Shown in pieces: positions 37,600-45,022 of a stretch of DNA of 64,000 nt. Position numbers and translations under genes: made by a program. The notes beneath the pieces are model-generated. The model did not search any database. It saw only the letters and a program-made list of their open reading frames with translations, and was not told the origin of the DNA. The stretch is from the NCBI GenBank assembly GCA_051294375.1, contig CM119267.1, positions 14,625,694 through 14,689,693 on the forward strand, read 5' to 3'. Each line of letters opens with the position of its first letter. Position 1 is the stretch's first letter. This stretch comes from Paraspadella gotoi. Its lineage: Eukaryota > Animalia > Chaetognatha.

Positions 37600-40188
37600 A
37601 TGGCCTTTCTTAACGATTTAGGCGAAAAAGAAGCTCTTAAAAAACGGCTTCTTGCTCTGAAAAGAAAAGAAGAGAAAATTAAAGCCCGAGTCCTCTCGGC
37701 CGATTGGGCGGAAAAGGTCCCTCTCTCGGTAGTTAGGTCGCCTCCCCCAGTCCAGCCTCCCATAGTCAAATCGAGATCGACCCCGACCTTCGTGGAAACG
37801 CAGGATTTATTCGATTCCCCGGTTTTTTGTGAAAATCGTTTCCTTATAAACCATGAGTCGGAAAAAGAAACGACACAATCCGATCGTCGGGGAAATCACG
37901 CTTCCTACTCGAAACAACAAGAAAAGGCCTCTTCCGAAATAGACGAAGTCGCCGACACGGCACAGGTCATTCCCCCGACTCAGGCTTCGATCCGAGGTCG
38001 AAAATCCAGATCCAAAGCCTCGAAATTTCCCACCACAAAACCAAAGCCTCGTTCCAAGGCGAAATTCATCGACGGTTTGGATTTGAACAGCATCATCACC
38101 CTCGATGTCTTCGAATCTGTATCCTTAAGTGTCGGCGATGTCTCTTCGCCGTCCGGTAACGTCGCATCACCCGTGGGTTCTGGTCGTCGGTCCTTGCGTT
38201 TGGCGGGGAAAGCGACGACACCGCGATCCGCTCCTCTCTTTCTCGGTTCCTCCTCCACTGGGCGTGGACAGAAACGGTCTCTATCGGAAGGAAAAGAATA
38301 CGAAGATACAGTGAAGAAACAGAGGAAAGATGTGACGCGAATGTTCGAAAAGCTCGAGCGACGATCTGAGAGCGAACAGCAAGAATTCGATACAGTCATC
38401 AAGAATTTCGGGGATGTGCTTTTGATGGAGTCCCGTGAGCCAGGGAAGAAAACTTGCAACCACTCCGATTTAAAAGGAGATGGTGAGTCTTCGATCATGA
38501 AGTCTGCCTCCTATACGGAATCCGATAGATTAATTTTCGTCGAAGCGGAGCCTGTCACATTCGAATTGTCGGGAAATCTAAATTCCGCGTCCATTTCAGA
38601 AAATAAACCAAATAACCGCGAATGCTATTTTAATAAGACGGATACCTTGAATGTCCTTAAGAAACAGAATTCTCAGGGTTTCTCTGATTCCGATTCGGCT
38701 CCTGATGGCCCATTTATCAGAAGGAGAACCTTGAAGAGATCAAGTACAAAGTCCTTATTCGAAGCGAGCAGTAATCAGACGACTGTTAGCCGATCTGAAT
38801 TCAAACTTTCTTCCCCTAGTAAGGACTTATCTTCCCGCAAAGAATGTGACACAACTTCCAATATTTTCCCCGATAAGGAAGACTCTCAAATTAGTACGTT
38901 TGGTCCCACCAACGAAACGTTACTCCTGTGTAATACTCAAGAAAATGTTTTGTGTCATGATACTTCGGTAATGGACAATGTTGACCTTGGTTCATCCGTT
39001 TCCAGTGGGGATTCCGTCGGGTTCGTTCTAGGAATAAATTCGTTGCCCCCAACTAAACAGACTGTTTTATCGCAACGAAAACATTATCTCGATACGAAGA
39101 ATTTCATCGAGCTGAAAGAGAAAGAGTACGAATCAACTTTACCTTTGAAAGCGAAAGTGGACAAAGTTCGATTCGGCCTCGGATTCGCTTTCATTTCACT
39201 CGGTCATGAACTCTGGATTTTCGGTGGAAAAAATAAACAGATTTGCCTTCCCAAGTCATTTCGTAAAATAGTGGACCTGAGAATGTTTTCCAGCTCAATG
39301 TCAGGCGACATTATAGTTTTCATCGTTTCGGAAAACGAAAATTCTAATTTCTGTTGGTCAGTTTGGACGTTAGTCGTAGCTAAACTGCTGAATATAGTTC
39401 CATTAACGATGTCATCGAAATTGGGTTCTTTCACTGGTAACTGCGATGATATTATTTTGGCATCGGATCCTTCAAAGCCTTTGATTTTTTTTGGCATTAA
39501 TGAGGAGATTAGTAAATTAGCCAGGCTCGACCTTGATGATGTCGAGCCGTGTGTGCAATCTTTCAGCGACCACTGCATTCGGAAAAACGTAAAAATTATC
39601 TCTCTTGCTTTAGTTCAAAATATGAACATTTGCGTCGTCGGTTTGCTCAGGGAAAGCACTTCGAAAGAACGTTTAAGGACGTGTTTTGGACACATATGGG
39701 ATGGTCAAACTGGGGAAATTCTTGTTAATTTCCTTCATCCCCTCGGCTTGGAGGCCCCTATTTCCAACAAATCTAATGAGCAGATGCTTTTTGTTCGTCA
39801 AGAACTTTCTGGGATCCTATTTTACTGCTTCACAAAGTGCCAAAATGACCGCGGAGTTCCAGTTCCTTATGTCATTGCTCAAAATCCTTTCAACAACGTT
39901 TCAATCAGTTTGCTTAAGTTTCAAGAGCCAACACTGATAGATAAATGCAAACATTTACACATTACTGATTGCTCAATAGGAAAAAGATTACTGTGCCTGT
40001 CATACAACAACAATCAATCCTGCATTTGGCGGATTGATGACGGTTCAGTTGTTGGCGAGTTCTTCACTAATGAGAATAGGACTGGCATTTTTTCAAGTTT
40101 GGATGAAAACAACAACCTTTTACTTTGTGATAGTTTTTCGGGAAATTGTAAGTTTAAATTTTGGAGGACGTTTGAAGAATTTCTCTAA
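37600..40188 (+). CDS. PALB2: PALB2-like protein (N-terminal coiled coil, disordered middle, C-terminal beta-propeller-like region), intronless
   Basis: EKEALKKRLLALKRKEEKIKARVLSADWAEKV resembles the PALB2 coiled coil [32 protein letters not shown]. The C-terminus is beta-rich (HIWDGQTGEIL, CIWRIDDG). Confidence 0.65.
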   Translation: MAFLNDLGEKEALKKRLLALKRKEEKIKARVLSADWAEKVPLSVVRSPPPVQPPIVKSRSTPTFVETQDLFDSPVFCENRFLINHESEKETTQSDRRGNHASYSKQQEKASSEIDEVADTAQVIPPTQASIRGRKSRSKASKFPTTKPKPRSKAKFIDGLDLNSIITLDVFESVSLSVGDVSSPSGNVASPVGSGRRSLRLAGKATTPRSAPLFLGSSSTGRGQKRSLSEGKEYEDTVKKQRKDVTRMFEKLERRSESEQQEFDTVIKNFGDVLLMESREPGKKTCNHSDLKGDGESSIMKSASYTESDRLIFVEAEPVTFELSGNLNSASISENKPNNRECYFNKTDTLNVLKKQNSQGFSDSDSAPDGPFIRRRTLKRSSTKSLFEASSNQTTVSRSEFKLSSPSKDLSSRKECDTTSNIFPDKEDSQISTFGPTNETLLLCNTQENVLCHDTSVMDNVDLGSSVSSGDSVGFVLGINSLPPTKQTVLSQRKHYLDTKNFIELKEKEYESTLPLKAKVDKVRFGLGFAFISLGHELWIFGGKNKQICLPKSFRKIVDLRMFSSSMSGDIIVFIVSENENSNFCWSVWTLVVAKLLNIVPLTMSSKLGSFTGNCDDIILASDPSKPLIFFGINEEISKLARLDLDDVEPCVQSFSDHCIRKNVKIISLALVQNMNICVVGLLRESTSKERLRTCFGHIWDGQTGEILVNFLHPLGLEAPISNKSNEQMLFVRQELSGILFYCFTKCQNDRGVPVPYVIAQNPFNNVSISLLKFQEPTLIDKCKHLHITDCSIGKRLLCLSYNNNQSCIWRIDDGSVVGEFFTNENRTGIFSSLDENNNLLLCDSFSGNCKFKFWRTFEEFL

Positions 40189-41610
40189 TTTTTAGTTCAA
40201 GATAGTTATAGCATTTTTGCCAAGGCTTTTTAAGGCTTTAACTAGTTTTACGTACGTTTTAAGAAGGTAATAATGGTTTCAAGATCAGAAATCATGTTCT
40301 TACTCTAGTCAGGATTTGTCTAGAATTTGAATGTTTGTGGGTTTTATCTCGCCAGACGGGCGTAGGTCCGTCTTTGGCGAGATAATCGTTTACCATTTCT
40401 TCTTTGTAACCGTTGTTGTCGTCGTTGTCGTCGTTATCACGCTTTTTTATAATTTGAAATTATAAAAGTGTTACATGAAAAGATGATTATTTAATATGAT
40501 CTTAAATGAGATTGAATCTCTCAATCTCATTTACATATTGCAGTATTGAATCTAAATGTGTCTAATTTCATTTTGGATTTTGATATTAGTTCTGTTTCAT
40601 GGTTTTCTAGTAGCTAAATATAGTCTTTAGCAATGTTAATGATTAACATTAGTCATAGTACTATTTTAACTAATTAATTAATAATAATACTTTAACATTT
40701 TATTACTTAAAGATTTGACTTGCTCATATTTACTGATTCCTTTATTTGTTCAGAAGTTAAATCATTATTCAGCTTTGGTTTTGGGGACGCAATCTCATTT
40801 CTCCTTATCAGAGTTAAATCAGCATAAGATTAACATCTTAACAGTTAATCACTAATAGTGCAAAATTGTGTTCAATAAGGTCTAAGTACAATATAATAGA
40901 GATAAATAAATAGTGTTTAATTGCGTTTCCATTTCTCTACTTCAGGCAAAGCTAACTAGCTATACACATTAAAGACAGTTTAGATAGTAAGCGAGCATTC
41001 TTCACCAATGCCAAGTCAAGTCAACATACCATCAAGTAAGATATTAATGAACACTGAACCTTTTGGTACCTAGTTATATGCCTATCTAATCACAGGCAAC
41101 AACACCCCTTATATCCATTTAGAATATTATTTTAATTATTTTTACATTTACTGATAGGAAATGATGTCAATATTGTTGATAGAACATTTCAAATCAATCG
41201 ATTCACGCGTTGAGAAATAAGTAAAATAAATTATCATTTTGTTCAAAAAAAAAAGAAATAATTATGTAGTAACCTTTAAAAAAATATTATTTAAATATAA
41301 ACATTTAGGAGTTAAAACTTTGTTCCGGCTGATTTAAAAACTACAAACAAAAGGCTGTAAGACTATTATCAGATTTTTAAATTTTGGTCATCTTTAAAAC
41401 CTTTGCATAATGCTCATTAGCTATATGAATATTAAAAATTTTTATTAAAAAAACAACTATAATCTTTAAATAACATAATAAAATTAATAATGCATAGGTT
41501 AAATTATTATTTTTAATTATAATACAAAGCGTTTATCAATTAAGGGATAAATTATAAAAAAATGAGGTATTTCATAATTCCATATTGATATTTTTCAGCA
41601 GATTTTAAGG

Positions 41611-41825
41611 ATTGCTAACATATATCCATCAGCACTTACTGTCAATAAATCTAATAATATAGATACAAATGTAGATTATTTAGACATTAACGTCAAATCA
41701 GAAAACAAAAATCTTACTCTTTCTGTATATGATAAAAGGGATTCCTTTTCTTTTGAAGTAGTTATTACCCATTTATGGACAGTTGTATTCCTAGAAAAGC
41801 AGCATTAGGTTTATTTATTAGCCAA
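41611..41825 (+). pseudogene. degenerate reverse-transcriptase fragment, Penelope-like element
   Basis: Translates as NIYPSALTVNKSN...VDYLDINV...SVYDKRDSFSFEVV/(frameshift)YPFMDSCIPRKAALGLFISQ, the IYP...YLD...YDKR..F.F....P...S.IP......FISQ pattern of PLE RT C-terminal regions. Confidence 0.75.
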
Positions 41826-41945
41826 TAGACCTTTTCCCAGTATGTATCCCTATCAGAACATACGATTCTACTTCGTAGTCTTATCCCTATTGGTAAAAAA
41901 AATCATATATAACTTTGGTCCCCCTCAAAAAATTATCCATTCCCA
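41826..41945. repeat. dispersed repeat (inverted copy at ~60850-60972)
   Basis: Shared CCCTATCAGAACATAC...GTAGTCTTATCCCTATT...CCCCTCAAAAAATTATCCATTCCCA. Confidence 0.8.
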
Positions 41946-42009
41946 TTATTCATTTCATTTCGTTTTATTGATTCATTGGATTTTTTAAACGTTTTCCCAT
42001 AATTGATTT

Positions 42010-42205
42010 GCTATCATCGCATCAATGATTGGTTATCATCCCATCAATGATTGGTTATCATCGCATTAATAATTTTTTATTATCGCATTAATAATTAGTT
42101 ATGATTGCATTCATAAATTTTTATTATCGCATCAATAAGTCATTATTATTGCATCAATAATCAGTTACTATCACATCAATAATTCGTTATCGCATCAATC
42201 ATTCG
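42010..42205. repeat. degenerate minisatellite of ~21-bp units
   Basis: Repeated TATCATCGCATCAATGATTGGT-like units. Confidence 0.8.
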
Positions 42206-43038
42206 TTTTTTTTTCCAAGTTTTTTCATTAATTTCCTTTCATAGTAACGTCTGGCGAAATCACTTGACTTTTTTTTCAATTTGCCTTGGAAAGTAGGAAT
42301 ATTTATCGCGTTGTTTAATTGTTGTAAACATTTATATTAAATAAAATTTGTTAAAGAAATATTCAATTCTGTTACCTGAATTAGATTTTTCGGTTACCGT
42401 TCGTTATCCCATCGATTTTAGCATCTTGCAAGTTTATTCCATCCAATAAAAATATCTGTCAATTGCAAATCGCCTTTTACTAAGTCATTTTTTTAAGGTA
42501 ATAAATTCATTTAAAAAATTTTGAAACTTATGAACATTTCGTTATTAATAATTTGTTATATTTCCGATGGCCCCTATTAAATCTTTTTTAATTTTTTTCT
42601 AGTGCATAAGAGGAATGAACCGGTACAGTTGACTTTAAAAAAATTTTATTCTCGATAAAAAAAAATTAAGCAAACTTTGGATTTTCAAAGATATAAATTT
42701 AGTAAATTTATTTTAGTTCCAGTTTTAGGGACGTTGTTATCTTCATATCTTTGCGGTTCTCTGTTTAGAACCAAGATTAAAAAATTGCAATGTTTTAAAA
42801 TATGTAGCTTGACAAAACAGTGACTGCCTTATCATGTATATTTCTCGTGACGTTATACGACATAACATTACGTAACATGACATCACTGAATGATTACAAT
42901 AACCTTCTTAGCTTGTGTATTTATAACAAGCACTGCATCGGAATTTCTTTCTTTTTTTATTGATTTAGGATTTCCTGAAGGCGGCGCTAGCAGTCACTTA
43001 GATTTGATGTTTTTCTTGACGTTCAGCGTCTTTTAAGT

Positions 43039-43114
43039 GGGACAGACCGACGGACAGACCGACCGACAAGTGACATAGAATTGCTCCACGAGTACTCGCG
43101 GCGCAACTAAAAAA
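43039..43114 (-). mobile_element. DINE-1/HINE-like element end
   Basis: Minus strand reads TTTTTAGTTGCGCCGCGAGTACTCGTGGAGCAATT (hairpin) followed by a (GTCG/GTCT/GTCC)n microsatellite. Confidence 0.5.
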
Positions 43115-43211
43115 CATAACCTTCCCTCGAAAAACATTGTTTTACGTTAAGTTTAACGCATTTCTACGTATTTCTTATCAATCAGCAGGTTGTTTATTTT
43201 GATTTCACGTA

Positions 43212-43577
43212 ATGAGTTGGTTTGGTCGAAGGATGTTAAGCCCGCTGTCGGGGCGCCTGCTCACACAGCGGAAAATCCACGAGAACTCAACCACGGCGTC
43301 CGGCCACCAAGTGAGCGTGGTTTATTGCGGCGCCTGAGGATACCAAAGTCGTTTCGACGCGCTGCATGGTCAACTTCGTGAGGTTTTTCCCGACCTTTTC
43401 GAAGGGTCCGCGGCCATCGAAGTTACCGGCTCAAAATCGCTCGACAAATCTGGCGCCTTCGAAGTCTCCGTCGATGGGAAGTTAGTCCACTCCAAGTTGA
43501 ACGGCGACGGCTACGTCGATAACGAAGAGAAGCTCGACCGGATTGTAGAGGCCATCGAAGAACTGGGACTGCAATGA
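43212..43577 (+). CDS. SELENOW: selenoprotein W (Rdx family, CxxU), in-frame TGA at 43335-43337 read as Sec
   Basis: Reading through TGA gives 121 aa: ...VSVVYCGAUGYQSRF...SGAFEVSVDGKLVHSKLNGDGYVDNEEKLDRIVEAI, a close match to SelW motifs. A SECIS follows. Confidence 0.93.
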
Positions 43578-43592
43578 GAGACCCTCTTAATG

Positions 43593-43657
43593 CTCGGCCC
43601 GATGACGAAGCAAATATCAATCCCTAGCGGTTATTTGTTTTCGATGCGTACGCCGGG
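43593..43657 (+). promoter_or_regulatory. eukaryotic SECIS element
   Basis: Helix I CTCGGC/GCCGGG, ATGA core at 43602, helix II GAAGCAAATA/TATTTGTTTT, apical AA and a 3' GA at 43643. Confidence 0.88.
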
Positions 43658-43816
43658 ATCAGTTTCCAAAGTTTTGTTCAGTTTTATTCAGTATGACCAT
43701 TACTGAATTAGATTCAAAAGATCAAGATTGTCAAGTTGCGGGTTCTCCTGTTTATTGGGGTTTTTTTTCCAGATTTTAATTTGGTTTTTTCTTGGAGTCG
43801 TCCAAAAGAAACTGAA

Positions 43817-45022
43817 ATGTCCAAACTCGAGAATGTCAACGTTCACAGGGATATTATCACCGAGTCTTTCTCATACGCCCTCCTTCCTCTGCACAAAGTA
43901 ACAAAACTGGTGTCTTGAATGTGATTAAAGAATTCGCAACTATAATTCAATAATCAATAATTAAAGATTCAATATTAATCTAATAATTATTTTTTATGCA
44001 GCATCCTCATTTGGCAGAAGCTTGTGCTTCGATTTTAAACGAGGAGTGGCCTCGCAGCATCGGCGCGCGTCTCCATCAAGTAAGCGTTTATAAATGATAT
44101 TAATACAAAAGATTTATGGACCTTCATAGTATTTCTCTTCTTCTGGTCTGTGTTATTTGTTTGTATTTGTTTCAGCGCCCCTTTTGCAGGTGGAGAAATC
44201 TTTTGACGACGGACCGACGTCTCTCGTTTTGATCCAAGACGCTGAGGATGGACAAATCTCTCCCGACAAAGTCATAGGTATTAGGTAATTTAATTTCAAT
44301 ACAAACGTTAAAAGTGTTGAGAATTAGGTGGTGAATAATCAATGATCTGTTGAAAATTTGAAATAATGGAATATTTTTTTATTCCTTTTCTTCTTGGCAG
44401 TTTTCTGTTTATCAAAACATTATATAGGTTATAGCAAAATATCGCAAGTAGTGGGCATTGATGACGCCATCATCGTGGAATCAGTCATCGTCTCCAAACC
44501 CTTTCGCGGTCGCGGGCTAGGCCGCCTACTTATGGAAAAAACTCACGCCTTTGCCAGGAATCGCGGCTTCGCCACCGTTTATCTCTCAACTCATGACAAG
44601 CAGAACTTCTACGCGCGTCTTGGTTATGAATACTGCACCCCGGTTTGCAGCCTTCATTCTAACGGTGGGATCAACGCAGCCATTGAGTCACTTTTCATAG
44701 GTAATTTCGGGTTCGTTGTTTTTCACCTCGCGTCCTGGCTAAGGAAATAAACCAATAACCAATAGGAAAATGTTCTCTGGGCGTACCTTTGTCGCAACTT
44801 GAATCTGCATCCGCGAAGACCGACACCGACTCGACAATCAATCCCTTTGACGTCTCGTCGTCTTTTTCCGCACCACCGGCGCCTCCTCCACCTGTTCTCA
44901 GTCATTTTCGGGGCAAGAAAACAGAGTCGACGAAGTCATCGAAAAGCCCAAACGTGGTTCGTATGGACCCTCGAAACATCAGCTGGATGCGTCTCGATCT
45001 TCTCCGCAATCCTTTAAAATAG
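43817..45022 (+). CDS. NAA80: actin N-terminal acetyltransferase NAA80/NAT6; exons 43817-43897, 44002-44079, 44190-44277, 44428-44700, 44766-45022
   Basis: LLPLHKHPHLAEACASILNEEWPRSIGARL, GNAT motif ESVIVSKPFRGRGLGR, LSTHDKQNFYARLGY, a proline-rich loop and C-terminal WMRLDL. Confidence 0.88.

What the first reader, a model, noticed from the sequence alone, without database searches (positions are those of the whole stretch)
43212..43657. Hidden selenoprotein W with an N-terminal extension resembling a mitochondrial presequence
Seen: in-frame TGA in CGAUG, a canonical SECIS starting 16 nt after the stop, and about 30 extra N-terminal residues (MSWFGRRMLSPLSGRLLTQRKIH) that are Arg/Leu/Ser-rich with no acidic residue until position 24. 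Known: SelW is normally a short cytosolic protein starting a few residues before CxxU. Inference: a mitochondria-targeted SelW variant. The SECIS must also fit in a 239-bp intercistronic gap. The ORF track missed this gene.
Basis: partly seen in the sequence, partly recalled or inferred. Interest (0 to 1): 0.72.

Follow-up and report, generated by a model that had tools for sequence, protein, structure and literature searches.

The report
Arrow-worm mitochondrial selenoprotein W paralog
An intact, transcribed gene, likely from an arrow worm, encodes a selenoprotein W relative with an extra 30-residue leader that three related proteins also carry, so it is likely a second copy of this normally cytosolic antioxidant protein, predicted to be imported into mitochondria.

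Summary
Observation confirmed. 43212-43577(+) is an intronless 121-aa SELENOW-type gene: Pfam Rdx E 2e-15, best structure mouse SelW, in-frame TGA in CxxU. A hairpin 16 nt after the stop fits the strict SECISearch pattern (48 of 3000 shuffles do), although Rfam misses it. A spliced-RNA contig spans the gene unchanged.

The leader is real. The only ATGs lie 32 and 39 residues before CxxU. All three full-length relatives, which share a 5-6-residue insert, have an Arg/Leu/Ser/Thr-rich, acid-poor leader of the same length, while 34 of 38 SelW-type proteins start within 17 residues of the motif. Leader sequence turns over (5-7 of about 30 identical to ours) but its chemistry is kept, as presequences do.

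A separate, short SelW carrying arrow-worm spliced leaders exists, so this is likely a retargeted paralog. Import is only predicted: no TargetP or MitoFates run, our leader is the weakest of the four, and about 9% of random peptides pass my screen. I found no mitochondrial SelW/Rdx member in six literature searches; three note look-ups found no earlier report in this scan. New variant of a known kind.

The parts
43212..43577 (+). SELENOW-type CDS, 121 aa plus stop, no intron
   Evidence: Translation with TGA=U; X1 contig covers 43086-43897 with no gap or other letter
43212..43307 (+). N-terminal leader, residues 1-32; predicted mitochondrial presequence, predicted MPP cut 2-3 residues after R20
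   Evidence: 4 Arg, 1 Lys, 1 Glu in 24 aa, hydrophobic moment 0.54; pLDDT about 48, no fold; coding-like GC 0.59 against 0.31 upstream; same length and chemistry in P0002, P0029, P0192. Cut site inferred from the R-2/R-3 rule (PMC12895284, passage)
43233..43235 (+). Second in-frame ATG (M8), possible alternative start
   Evidence: aligns with Leu in the three relatives, so not conserved
43308..43574 (+). Rdx (thioredoxin-like) domain, residues 33-121
   Evidence: Pfam PF10262 E 1.9e-15, residues 33-111; Foldseek best hit 2npb, TM 0.83 by target length
43326..43337 (+). CxxU redox motif, C39-G-A-U42, with TGA at 43335-43337
   Evidence: aligns with the motif of mouse SelW
43392..43409 (+). 5-6 residue insert after helix 1 that marks the clade (approximate limits)
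   Evidence: Alignments
43593..43657 (+). SECIS-like hairpin; AUGA at 43602, 265 nt after the Sec codon
   Evidence: not detected by Rfam
43578..43816 (+). 239-bp gap to the NAA80-like gene: 3' UTR, SECIS, and a T-rich candidate acceptor ending at 43772; no AATAAA
   Evidence: bridged by one X1 contig
43163..43188 (+). Candidate splice or trans-splice acceptors (CAG ending 43185 and 43188) upstream of both ATGs
   Evidence: Pyrimidine count like the RNA-seen acceptors; use not shown
43817..45022 (+). Downstream GNAT acetyltransferase gene (NAA80-like, label recalled), likely the next cistron
   Evidence: Pfam GNAT; four GT-AG introns skipped in X1 contigs; 258-aa open product

Best explanation
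This intact, transcribed gene, likely of an arrow worm, encodes a SelW-fold protein whose in-frame UGA is likely read as selenocysteine and whose conserved 30-residue leader is predicted to be a cleavable mitochondrial presequence, making it likely a mitochondrial paralog of cytosolic selenoprotein W. Shown: open intronless frame, Rdx fold, TGA in CxxU, SECIS-pattern hairpin in the 3' UTR, RNA cover, leader kept in three relatives, a separate short SelW with arrow-worm spliced leaders. Inferred from established mechanism: SBP2 and eEFSec use the SECIS to recode UGA42 on cytosolic ribosomes; translation starts at ATG 43212; the Arg-rich leader takes the precursor through TOM and TIM23; MPP cuts after R20 (R-2 or R-3) and leaves a CxxU oxidoreductase of about 100 aa in the matrix that reduces or regulates protein thiols. 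Inferred: the gene heads a SelW-NAA80-PRDM operon resolved by spliced-leader trans-splicing.
For: Family and fold. SECIS pattern and shuffle control. RNA contig with no splice or edit in leader or TGA. Leader: nearest Met lies 32-41 residues before the motif Cys in 4 of 38 motif-bearing proteins, and these 4 are exactly the full-length members of the insert clade; the other 34 start within 17. First-Met spacing 39, 41, 40, 41 (P0192 counted from its second Met). Among the three relatives the leaders are 13-20 of 32 identical against 59-66 of 91 in the core; against ours only 5-7 of 30-31. All 4 pass a presequence screen; of 16 other window N-termini only the MRPL38-like one passes (label recalled), and 0 of 2 short SelW controls. 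Relatives have hydrophobic moments 0.73-0.98 and end in an FH(P/T)SS-type stretch. Short SelW with translated SL2/SL3: 3 of 212 proteins, one 90% cluster, apart from the leader clade in the tree.
Against: No trained predictor or experiment. The screen is my own and its thresholds were set after seeing the query; 56 of 724 random ATG peptides (29 of 308 GC-matched) pass. Our leader is the weakest of four: moment 0.54, Pro11 inside, no TOM20-like motif by my pattern, no helix in the model. The frame-specific codon test did not favour the reading frame in the leader (-2.4, -5.0, +2.8 bits). The product of ATG 43233 fails the screen. Rfam does not see the SECIS, and no relative's DNA was available to test SECIS conservation. 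The relatives are unnamed, so their phylum is not shown; the W at their CxxU position is inferred to be TGA. No genome was held, so both paralogs in one genome is not shown. The tree has 88 columns, support 93/89, unsettled bootstrap, and I chose the group by its insert beforehand.
Confidence: 0.7

Rival explanations
1. A genuine selenoprotein W with a translated but non-targeting N-terminal tail (as in SELENOV or MIEN1/SELENOW2) that stays in the cytosol or nucleus and uses the basic tail for partners or nucleic acid.
For: Extended Rdx members with no import are known (SELENOV N-terminal region, SELENOH RKRK motif; PMC10650576, passages). Leader unstructured in the model. About 9% of GC-matched random peptides pass the screen. 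The three relatives conserve leader sequence at 41-63%, fairly high for a disposable peptide.
Against: Leaders are Arg-rich, Lys-poor and acid-poor with amphipathic moments up to 0.98 and no basic cluster. Sequence turns over between our protein and the relatives while chemistry and length stay.
Confidence: 0.17
2. Dual localisation: ATG 43212 gives a mitochondrial form, while leaky scanning or trans-splicing at an AG just before ATG 43233 (or a GTG start at 43311) gives a cytosolic form.
For: Two in-frame ATGs, both with a purine at -3; AGs end at 43216 and 43231; GTG at 43311 has A at -3; the ATG2 peptide fails the screen; the GC step lies between the two ATGs.
Against: M8 is Leu in the relatives, and P0002 and P0029 have no second Met before CxxU. 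Those AGs are GAG and AAG, unlike the YAG of all four RNA-seen acceptors. A short paralog can supply the cytosol.
Confidence: 0.1
3. UGA42 is a stop and the gene is a dead or truncated copy; the hairpin is a chance match.
For: No Rfam SECIS hit; z-score -0.05; the strict pattern occurs 12 times in the window.
Against: The frame after the TGA is intact and conserved (44-50 of 90 identical to relatives) with strong in-frame codon bias (+29 bits). The TGA sits exactly at the Sec position of SelW. The hairpin lies at a workable distance, and 1.6% of shuffles match.
Confidence: 0.03

Closest known systems
SELENOW / SelW1 (mouse SelW, PDB 2npb; Pfam Rdx PF10262)
   Same: Fold (TM 0.83 by target, 42% identity), CxxU after strand 1, GxFEV and HSK-x-x-GDG-x-VD stretches, SECIS in the 3' UTR
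   Different: SELENOW is a 9-kDa cytosolic protein (PMC10650576, passages) that starts about 10 residues before the Cys; this one has a 32-residue basic leader, a 5-6 residue insert after helix 1 and only one Cys
Short arrow-worm SelW (cluster P0003, P0017-P0026)
   Same: Same family; three members carry translated arrow-worm spliced leaders (leaders from PMC2481426 Table 3)
   Different: Starts 10 residues before the Cys, no insert, groups with ordinary animal SelW and apart from the leader clade
SELENOV
   Same: SelW duplicate that gained an N-terminal region (PMC13134290 section 14; PMC10650576 passages)
   Different: Placental mammals only, testis, cytoplasmic, N-terminal region of unknown function; an independent event
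MIEN1/Rdx12 and SELENOW2 (PDB 2ljk)
   Same: Rdx fold with a short N-terminal tail
   Different: Much weaker match (E 1.9e-6 against 2.3e-15); sister subfamily to SELENOW/SELENOV (PMC13134290 section 14)
Mitochondrial selenoproteins TXNRD2, GPX4 (long form), SELENOO
   Same: Works like them if the prediction holds: Sec inserted in the cytosol, then import (import route from my own knowledge; localisation from PMC12157226, PMC10650576, PMC13134290 passages)
   Different: Unrelated families; none is an Rdx member
Arrow-worm operons (Spadella RPS14-PCNA; Paraspadella, 18% of genes)
   Same: Same-strand genes with gaps under 250 bp (PMC2481426, PMC12460157 passages); here 239 and 82 bp, bridged by RNA contigs
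   Different: Spliced-leader addition was not seen here; contigs cannot show it

Membership tests
Rdx family / SELENOW | Thioredoxin-like Rdx domain | tested here: met
   Pfam PF10262 57.2 bits, cut-off 22.6; model and Foldseek
Rdx family / SELENOW | CxxU motif with in-frame TGA | tested here: met
   C39-G-A-U42
Rdx family / SELENOW | GxFE(I/V) stretch | tested here: met
   G81-A-F-E-V85; consensus from PMC10650576
Rdx family / SELENOW | Closer to SelW1 than to MIEN1/SELENOW2 | tested here: met
   2npb E 2.3e-15 against 2ljk E 1.9e-6; all named hits that carry a family name are Selenoprotein W
Canonical short SelW1 orthologue | Start within about 10-17 residues of the motif Cys | tested here: not met
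   Nearest Met 32 residues before; 34 of 38 others within 17
Eukaryotic SECIS | Helix I, AUGA core, helix II of 11-13 bp, apical AA, GA (SECISearch1 patterns) | tested here: met
   Strict, default and loose patterns match; drawn structure -13.3 kcal/mol, inside the SECISearch3 limit of -4
Eukaryotic SECIS | Core consensus UGAN/KGAW | tested here: not met
   UGAC/CGAU: C where K is expected (consensus from PMC3753652)
Eukaryotic SECIS | Covariance-model hit | tested here: not met
   No Rfam SECIS family at E<=10; the SECISearch3 Infernal and Covels models were not available
Eukaryotic SECIS | More than 51-111 nt from the Sec codon, in the 3' UTR | tested here: met
   265 nt; present on the RNA contig
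Eukaryotic SECIS | Conserved in relatives; drives UGA read-through | not testable with these tools
   No DNA of the clade relatives was retrieved
Cleavable mitochondrial presequence | 10-70 aa, positive, Ser/Thr-rich, lacking acidic residues | tested here: met
   Net +4 in 24 aa, first acid at 24; relatives net +3; definition from PMC12895284
Cleavable mitochondrial presequence | Amphipathic helix | tested here: inconclusive
   Moment 0.54 here, 0.73-0.98 in relatives; no helix in the model
Cleavable mitochondrial presequence | Arg at -2 or -3 of an MPP site | tested here: inconclusive
   R20-K-I-H fits; P0002 and P0029 have a matching Arg, P0192 does not; the loose pattern also fits 5 of 16 other window genes
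Cleavable mitochondrial presequence | Trained prediction, import and processing | not testable with these tools
   No TargetP, MitoFates or experiment
SL-resolved operon | Same strand, gap under 250 bp | tested here: met
   239 bp and 82 bp
SL-resolved operon | Spliced leader on the mRNAs | tested here: inconclusive
   Only assembled contigs; no loose end with a leader

The most novel reading that the evidence does not exclude
A whole animal lineage (likely the arrow worms) duplicated selenoprotein W and sent one copy into the mitochondrial matrix: the first mitochondrial member of the Rdx family and a fourth kind of mitochondrial selenoprotein in animals, away from the cytosolic 14-3-3 partners through which SelW is thought to act, and so a natural test of what the SelW CxxU motif does chemically.
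Probability: 0.55. Interest if true: 0.65.

Novelty: new variant of a known kind. Interest (0 to 1): 0.5.

Why it matters
Rdx selenoproteins are described in the cytosol (W, V), nucleolus (H) and ER/Golgi (T), and their substrates are still unknown (PMC10650576, passages). A matrix-targeted SelW would add a compartment to the family and a new family to the short list of mitochondrial selenoproteins. It would also imply a SelW function that does not need its cytosolic partners, and would give a paired cytosolic and mitochondrial set for substrate trapping. In practice it shows a gene class that standard annotation drops: most relatives in the databases are cut at the TGA, which hides the leader.

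Tried and rejected
No whole genome is held, so tRNA-Sec, SBP2, eEFSec and other SelW copies of this organism could not be sought. Rfam gave only chance hits. The run search listed no holder on record as RNA; X1 is called RNA here because its contigs skip four GT-AG introns. X3 and X4 gave nothing usable; X2 gave one 169-nt contig at depth 2.4. No spliced leader was seen as a loose end, which contigs cannot exclude. A search for stand-alone leader fragments found no candidate. The metagenome scan gave 59 loci; the 26 I translated showed no member of the insert clade and look like algal, ciliate or other protist SelW by eye. No Atlas result was obtained. Searching the held supplements of PMC12460157 for six gene names found nothing, so synteny with the published arrow-worm genome is untested. 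The frame-specific codon test on the leader was uninformative. Rejected: a hidden intron replacing the leader (contig unbroken); RNA editing of the TGA (no other letters); an ER signal peptide (no hydrophobic core in the sequence); MIEN1/SELENOW2 identity; the long N-termini of P0003, P0024, P0025 and P0118 as real leaders (5' UTR read through, with a Met close to the motif). Ostreococcus SelW ostta01g06300 is scored 'OTHER' by TargetP in the supplement of PMC8834552, so it is no precedent (I saw 2 of the 7 places for 'mTP').

Full report
1. What is there. The window is a compact animal genome with AT-rich introns and spacers and GC-richer exons. With TGA read as Sec, 43212-43577(+) gives 121 aa with CGAU at residues 39-42. 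The ORF list under code 1 does not show this gene. Pfam Rdx matches residues 33-111 at E 1.9e-15. Of 2 PDB sequences matched, mouse SelW 2npb scores E 2.3e-15 and MIEN1 2ljk E 1.9e-6. An AlphaFold2 model from a 16-row alignment has pLDDT about 48 for residues 1-30 and mostly 80-88 for the core; its best Foldseek hit is 2npb (E 6e-8, TM 0.83 by target).

2. SECIS. The hairpin 43593-43657 begins 16 nt after the stop, with AUGA 265 nt after the Sec codon. Helix II pairs 11 of 12 positions, AA opens an 11-nt loop, and the drawn structure is -13.3 kcal/mol. I re-implemented three SECISearch1 patterns from the supplement of PMC3753652, and it matches all three. Controls: 12 strict matches on both strands of the 64 kb before an energy filter, 4 of them at or below -12.6 kcal/mol (threshold recalled); 48 of 3000 shuffles of the gap match, 38 with that filter. 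Against: Rfam reports no SECIS at E<=10, the folding z-score is -0.05, and the core is UGAC/CGAU, one base off UGAN/KGAW. So the architecture is canonical, but it is not a model-grade match. With an intact conserved frame and a TGA at the Sec position, I put selenoprotein status at about 0.95.

3. Expression. Run X1 (type guessed as RNA) has a 918-nt contig covering 43086-43897 with no gap or other letter, then joined to exons of the next gene across GT-AG introns; a second contig joins that gene to the PRDM gene. A second study (X2) has one 169-nt contig at 43443-43611, depth 2.4. Hence no cis-intron removes the leader and the TGA is not edited in the assembled form. Contigs do not show 5' ends, spliced leaders or a single transcript.

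4. Is the leader translated? The only ATGs are at 43212 and 43233. GC rises from 0.31 in the 100 nt upstream to 0.59 in the leader, and a coding against non-coding codon score gives +0.59 bits per codon (core +0.73, upstream -0.61). A frame-specific score did not favour the frame. The decisive evidence is from relatives. Three searches returned unnamed proteins that share a 5-6 residue insert after helix 1: three full-length (P0002, P0029, P0192) and eight C-terminal fragments used in the tree. Among 38 fetched proteins with a readable motif, 34 have a Met within 17 residues of the Cys; the 4 that do not are the window protein and these three. Spacing from the start is 39, 41, 40 and 41 (P0192 from its second Met; I read its first 19 residues as UTR). 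Their leaders are 13-20 of 32 identical to each other and 5-7 of 30-31 to ours, against 59-66 of 91 and 44-50 of 90 in the core. M8 aligns with Leu, so ATG 43212 is the likely orthologous start. The W at their CxxU position is inferred to be TGA, since the same collection reads a known TGA as W in a spliced leader.

5. Is it a presequence? Presequences are 10-70 aa, amphipathic, positive, Ser/Thr-rich, free of acids and cut after R-2 or R-3 (PMC12895284, passage). My screen (first 24 aa: net >= +3, at most 1 acid, at least 3 Arg, Arg > Lys, moment >= 0.5) passes all 4 leaders, 1 of 16 other window N-termini (the MRPL38-like gene; label recalled) and 0 of 2 short SelW. It also passes 56 of 724 random ATG peptides and 29 of 308 GC-matched ones, and its thresholds were set after I saw the query, so one sequence alone is weak. 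The weight comes from kept chemistry and length under sequence turnover, and from moments of 0.73-0.98 in the relatives. Our leader is the weakest (0.54, Pro11, no helix in the model). The four are related and not independent.

6. Organism and paralogy. Two earlier notes of this scan call the genome an arrow worm (unchecked). The layout agrees: the genes I could recognise lie on one strand with gaps of 257, 87, 239, 82 and 227 bp among longer ones of 3023 and 1354, and P. gotoi operons are defined at under 250 bp (PMC12460157, passages). I have no direct taxonomic test. Independently, 3 of 212 fetched proteins (P0003, P0024, P0025) begin with in-frame translations of the arrow-worm leaders SL3.2 and SL2.0 (PMC2481426 Table 3), followed by a short canonical SelW. 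In a tree of 51 hand-picked rows of these proteins (88 columns) the insert group is one side of a branch in all 200 bootstrap trees against the other labelled groups, support 93/89, and the short cluster is 99/99 among ordinary SelW. Caveats: bootstrap unsettled, group chosen beforehand, long-branch P0070 falls with it, and P0075 was labelled vertebrate by eye. So arrow worms have a short SelW, and the window gene is likely a second paralog. Co-occurrence in one genome is untested.

7. Mechanism. Likely first cistron of a SelW-NAA80-PRDM unit; candidate acceptors end at 43185 or 43188 upstream and 43772 downstream; the gap has no AATAAA. The 3' end must form in the 114 nt between SECIS and that acceptor (inferred; in Spadella only three bases separate poly(A) site and acceptor). 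SECIS-directed recoding, import through TOM and TIM23, an MPP cut after R20 and a matrix thiol oxidoreductase role are inferred from established pathways, not shown.

8. Literature. Searches (listings and abstracts; Creative Commons PMC and bioRxiv only) showed no mitochondrial SelW or Rdx member and no arrow-worm selenoproteome; one search showed nothing on a SECIS inside an animal operon gap. Read: PMC10650576, PMC12157226, PMC12895284, PMC3473315 and PMC12460157 (passages; supplement search for the last), PMC13134290 (passages, section 14), PMC2481426 (passages, section 12), PMC3753652 (passages, supplement passages and part 4; one supplement file was not searchable), PMC8834552 (passages, three supplement rows). 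These place SELENOW and SELENOV in the cytoplasm, H in the nucleolus, T in ER/Golgi, and name TXNRD2, GPX4 and SELENOO as mitochondrial. Invertebrates often have 2-3 SelW genes (PMC3473315), so duplication itself is ordinary. Subscription papers and unseen supplements could hold a prior mention. Look-ups of this scan's notes by words, place and sequence found no earlier report of this gene.

9. Verdict. Observation confirmed. A real selenoprotein W paralog with a conserved leader; mitochondrial targeting about 0.7 as sole location and about 0.8 with dual forms. New variant of a known kind; interest 0.5.

Noticed in passing
window 44176-44190: Intron 2 of the NAA80-like gene has two acceptors 14 nt apart. 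The X1 contigs use the upstream one (44176), which shifts the frame and stops at codon 72; the downstream one (44190) gives an open 258-aa product. It may be an unproductive isoform or an assembler's choice.
   Followed up: partly
window 1-64000: All the roughly 20 genes I could recognise lie on the + strand, several with gaps under 260 bp; RNA contigs bridge SelW-NAA80 and NAA80-PRDM, and a 5811-nt contig ends at 40510. The longest P. gotoi operon reported has nine genes.
   Followed up: partly
proteins P0003, P0024, P0025: Database proteins whose N-termini are translated arrow-worm spliced leaders; such peptides can serve as a phylum tag for unnamed metatranscriptome proteins.
   Followed up: yes
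window 40300-43115: The 3-kb gap upstream is filled with repeats that have many copies in X1, including a short element at about 43040-43115 that ends about 100 nt before the ATG and tandem units near 42020-42200.
   Followed up: no
window 37600-40188: Intronless 862-aa ORF with no Pfam hit; by recall it resembles PALB2 (N-terminal coiled coil, C-terminal propeller), untested.
   Followed up: no
window 44766: The fourth NAA80-like intron (65 nt) has an A-rich acceptor with almost no pyrimidine tract, yet it is skipped in the X1 contig.
   Followed up: no
L017, L020, L022, L023, L037, L046 and proteins such as P0012, P0050, P0085: Protist SelW-like domains followed by an acidic linker and a hydrophobic segment with a second in-frame TGA, apparently N-terminal to a longer membrane protein.
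   Followed up: no
L045; P0093 cluster: A SelW-like protein with a 35-residue Ala/Gly-rich N-terminal extension unrelated to this clade's leader.
   Followed up: no
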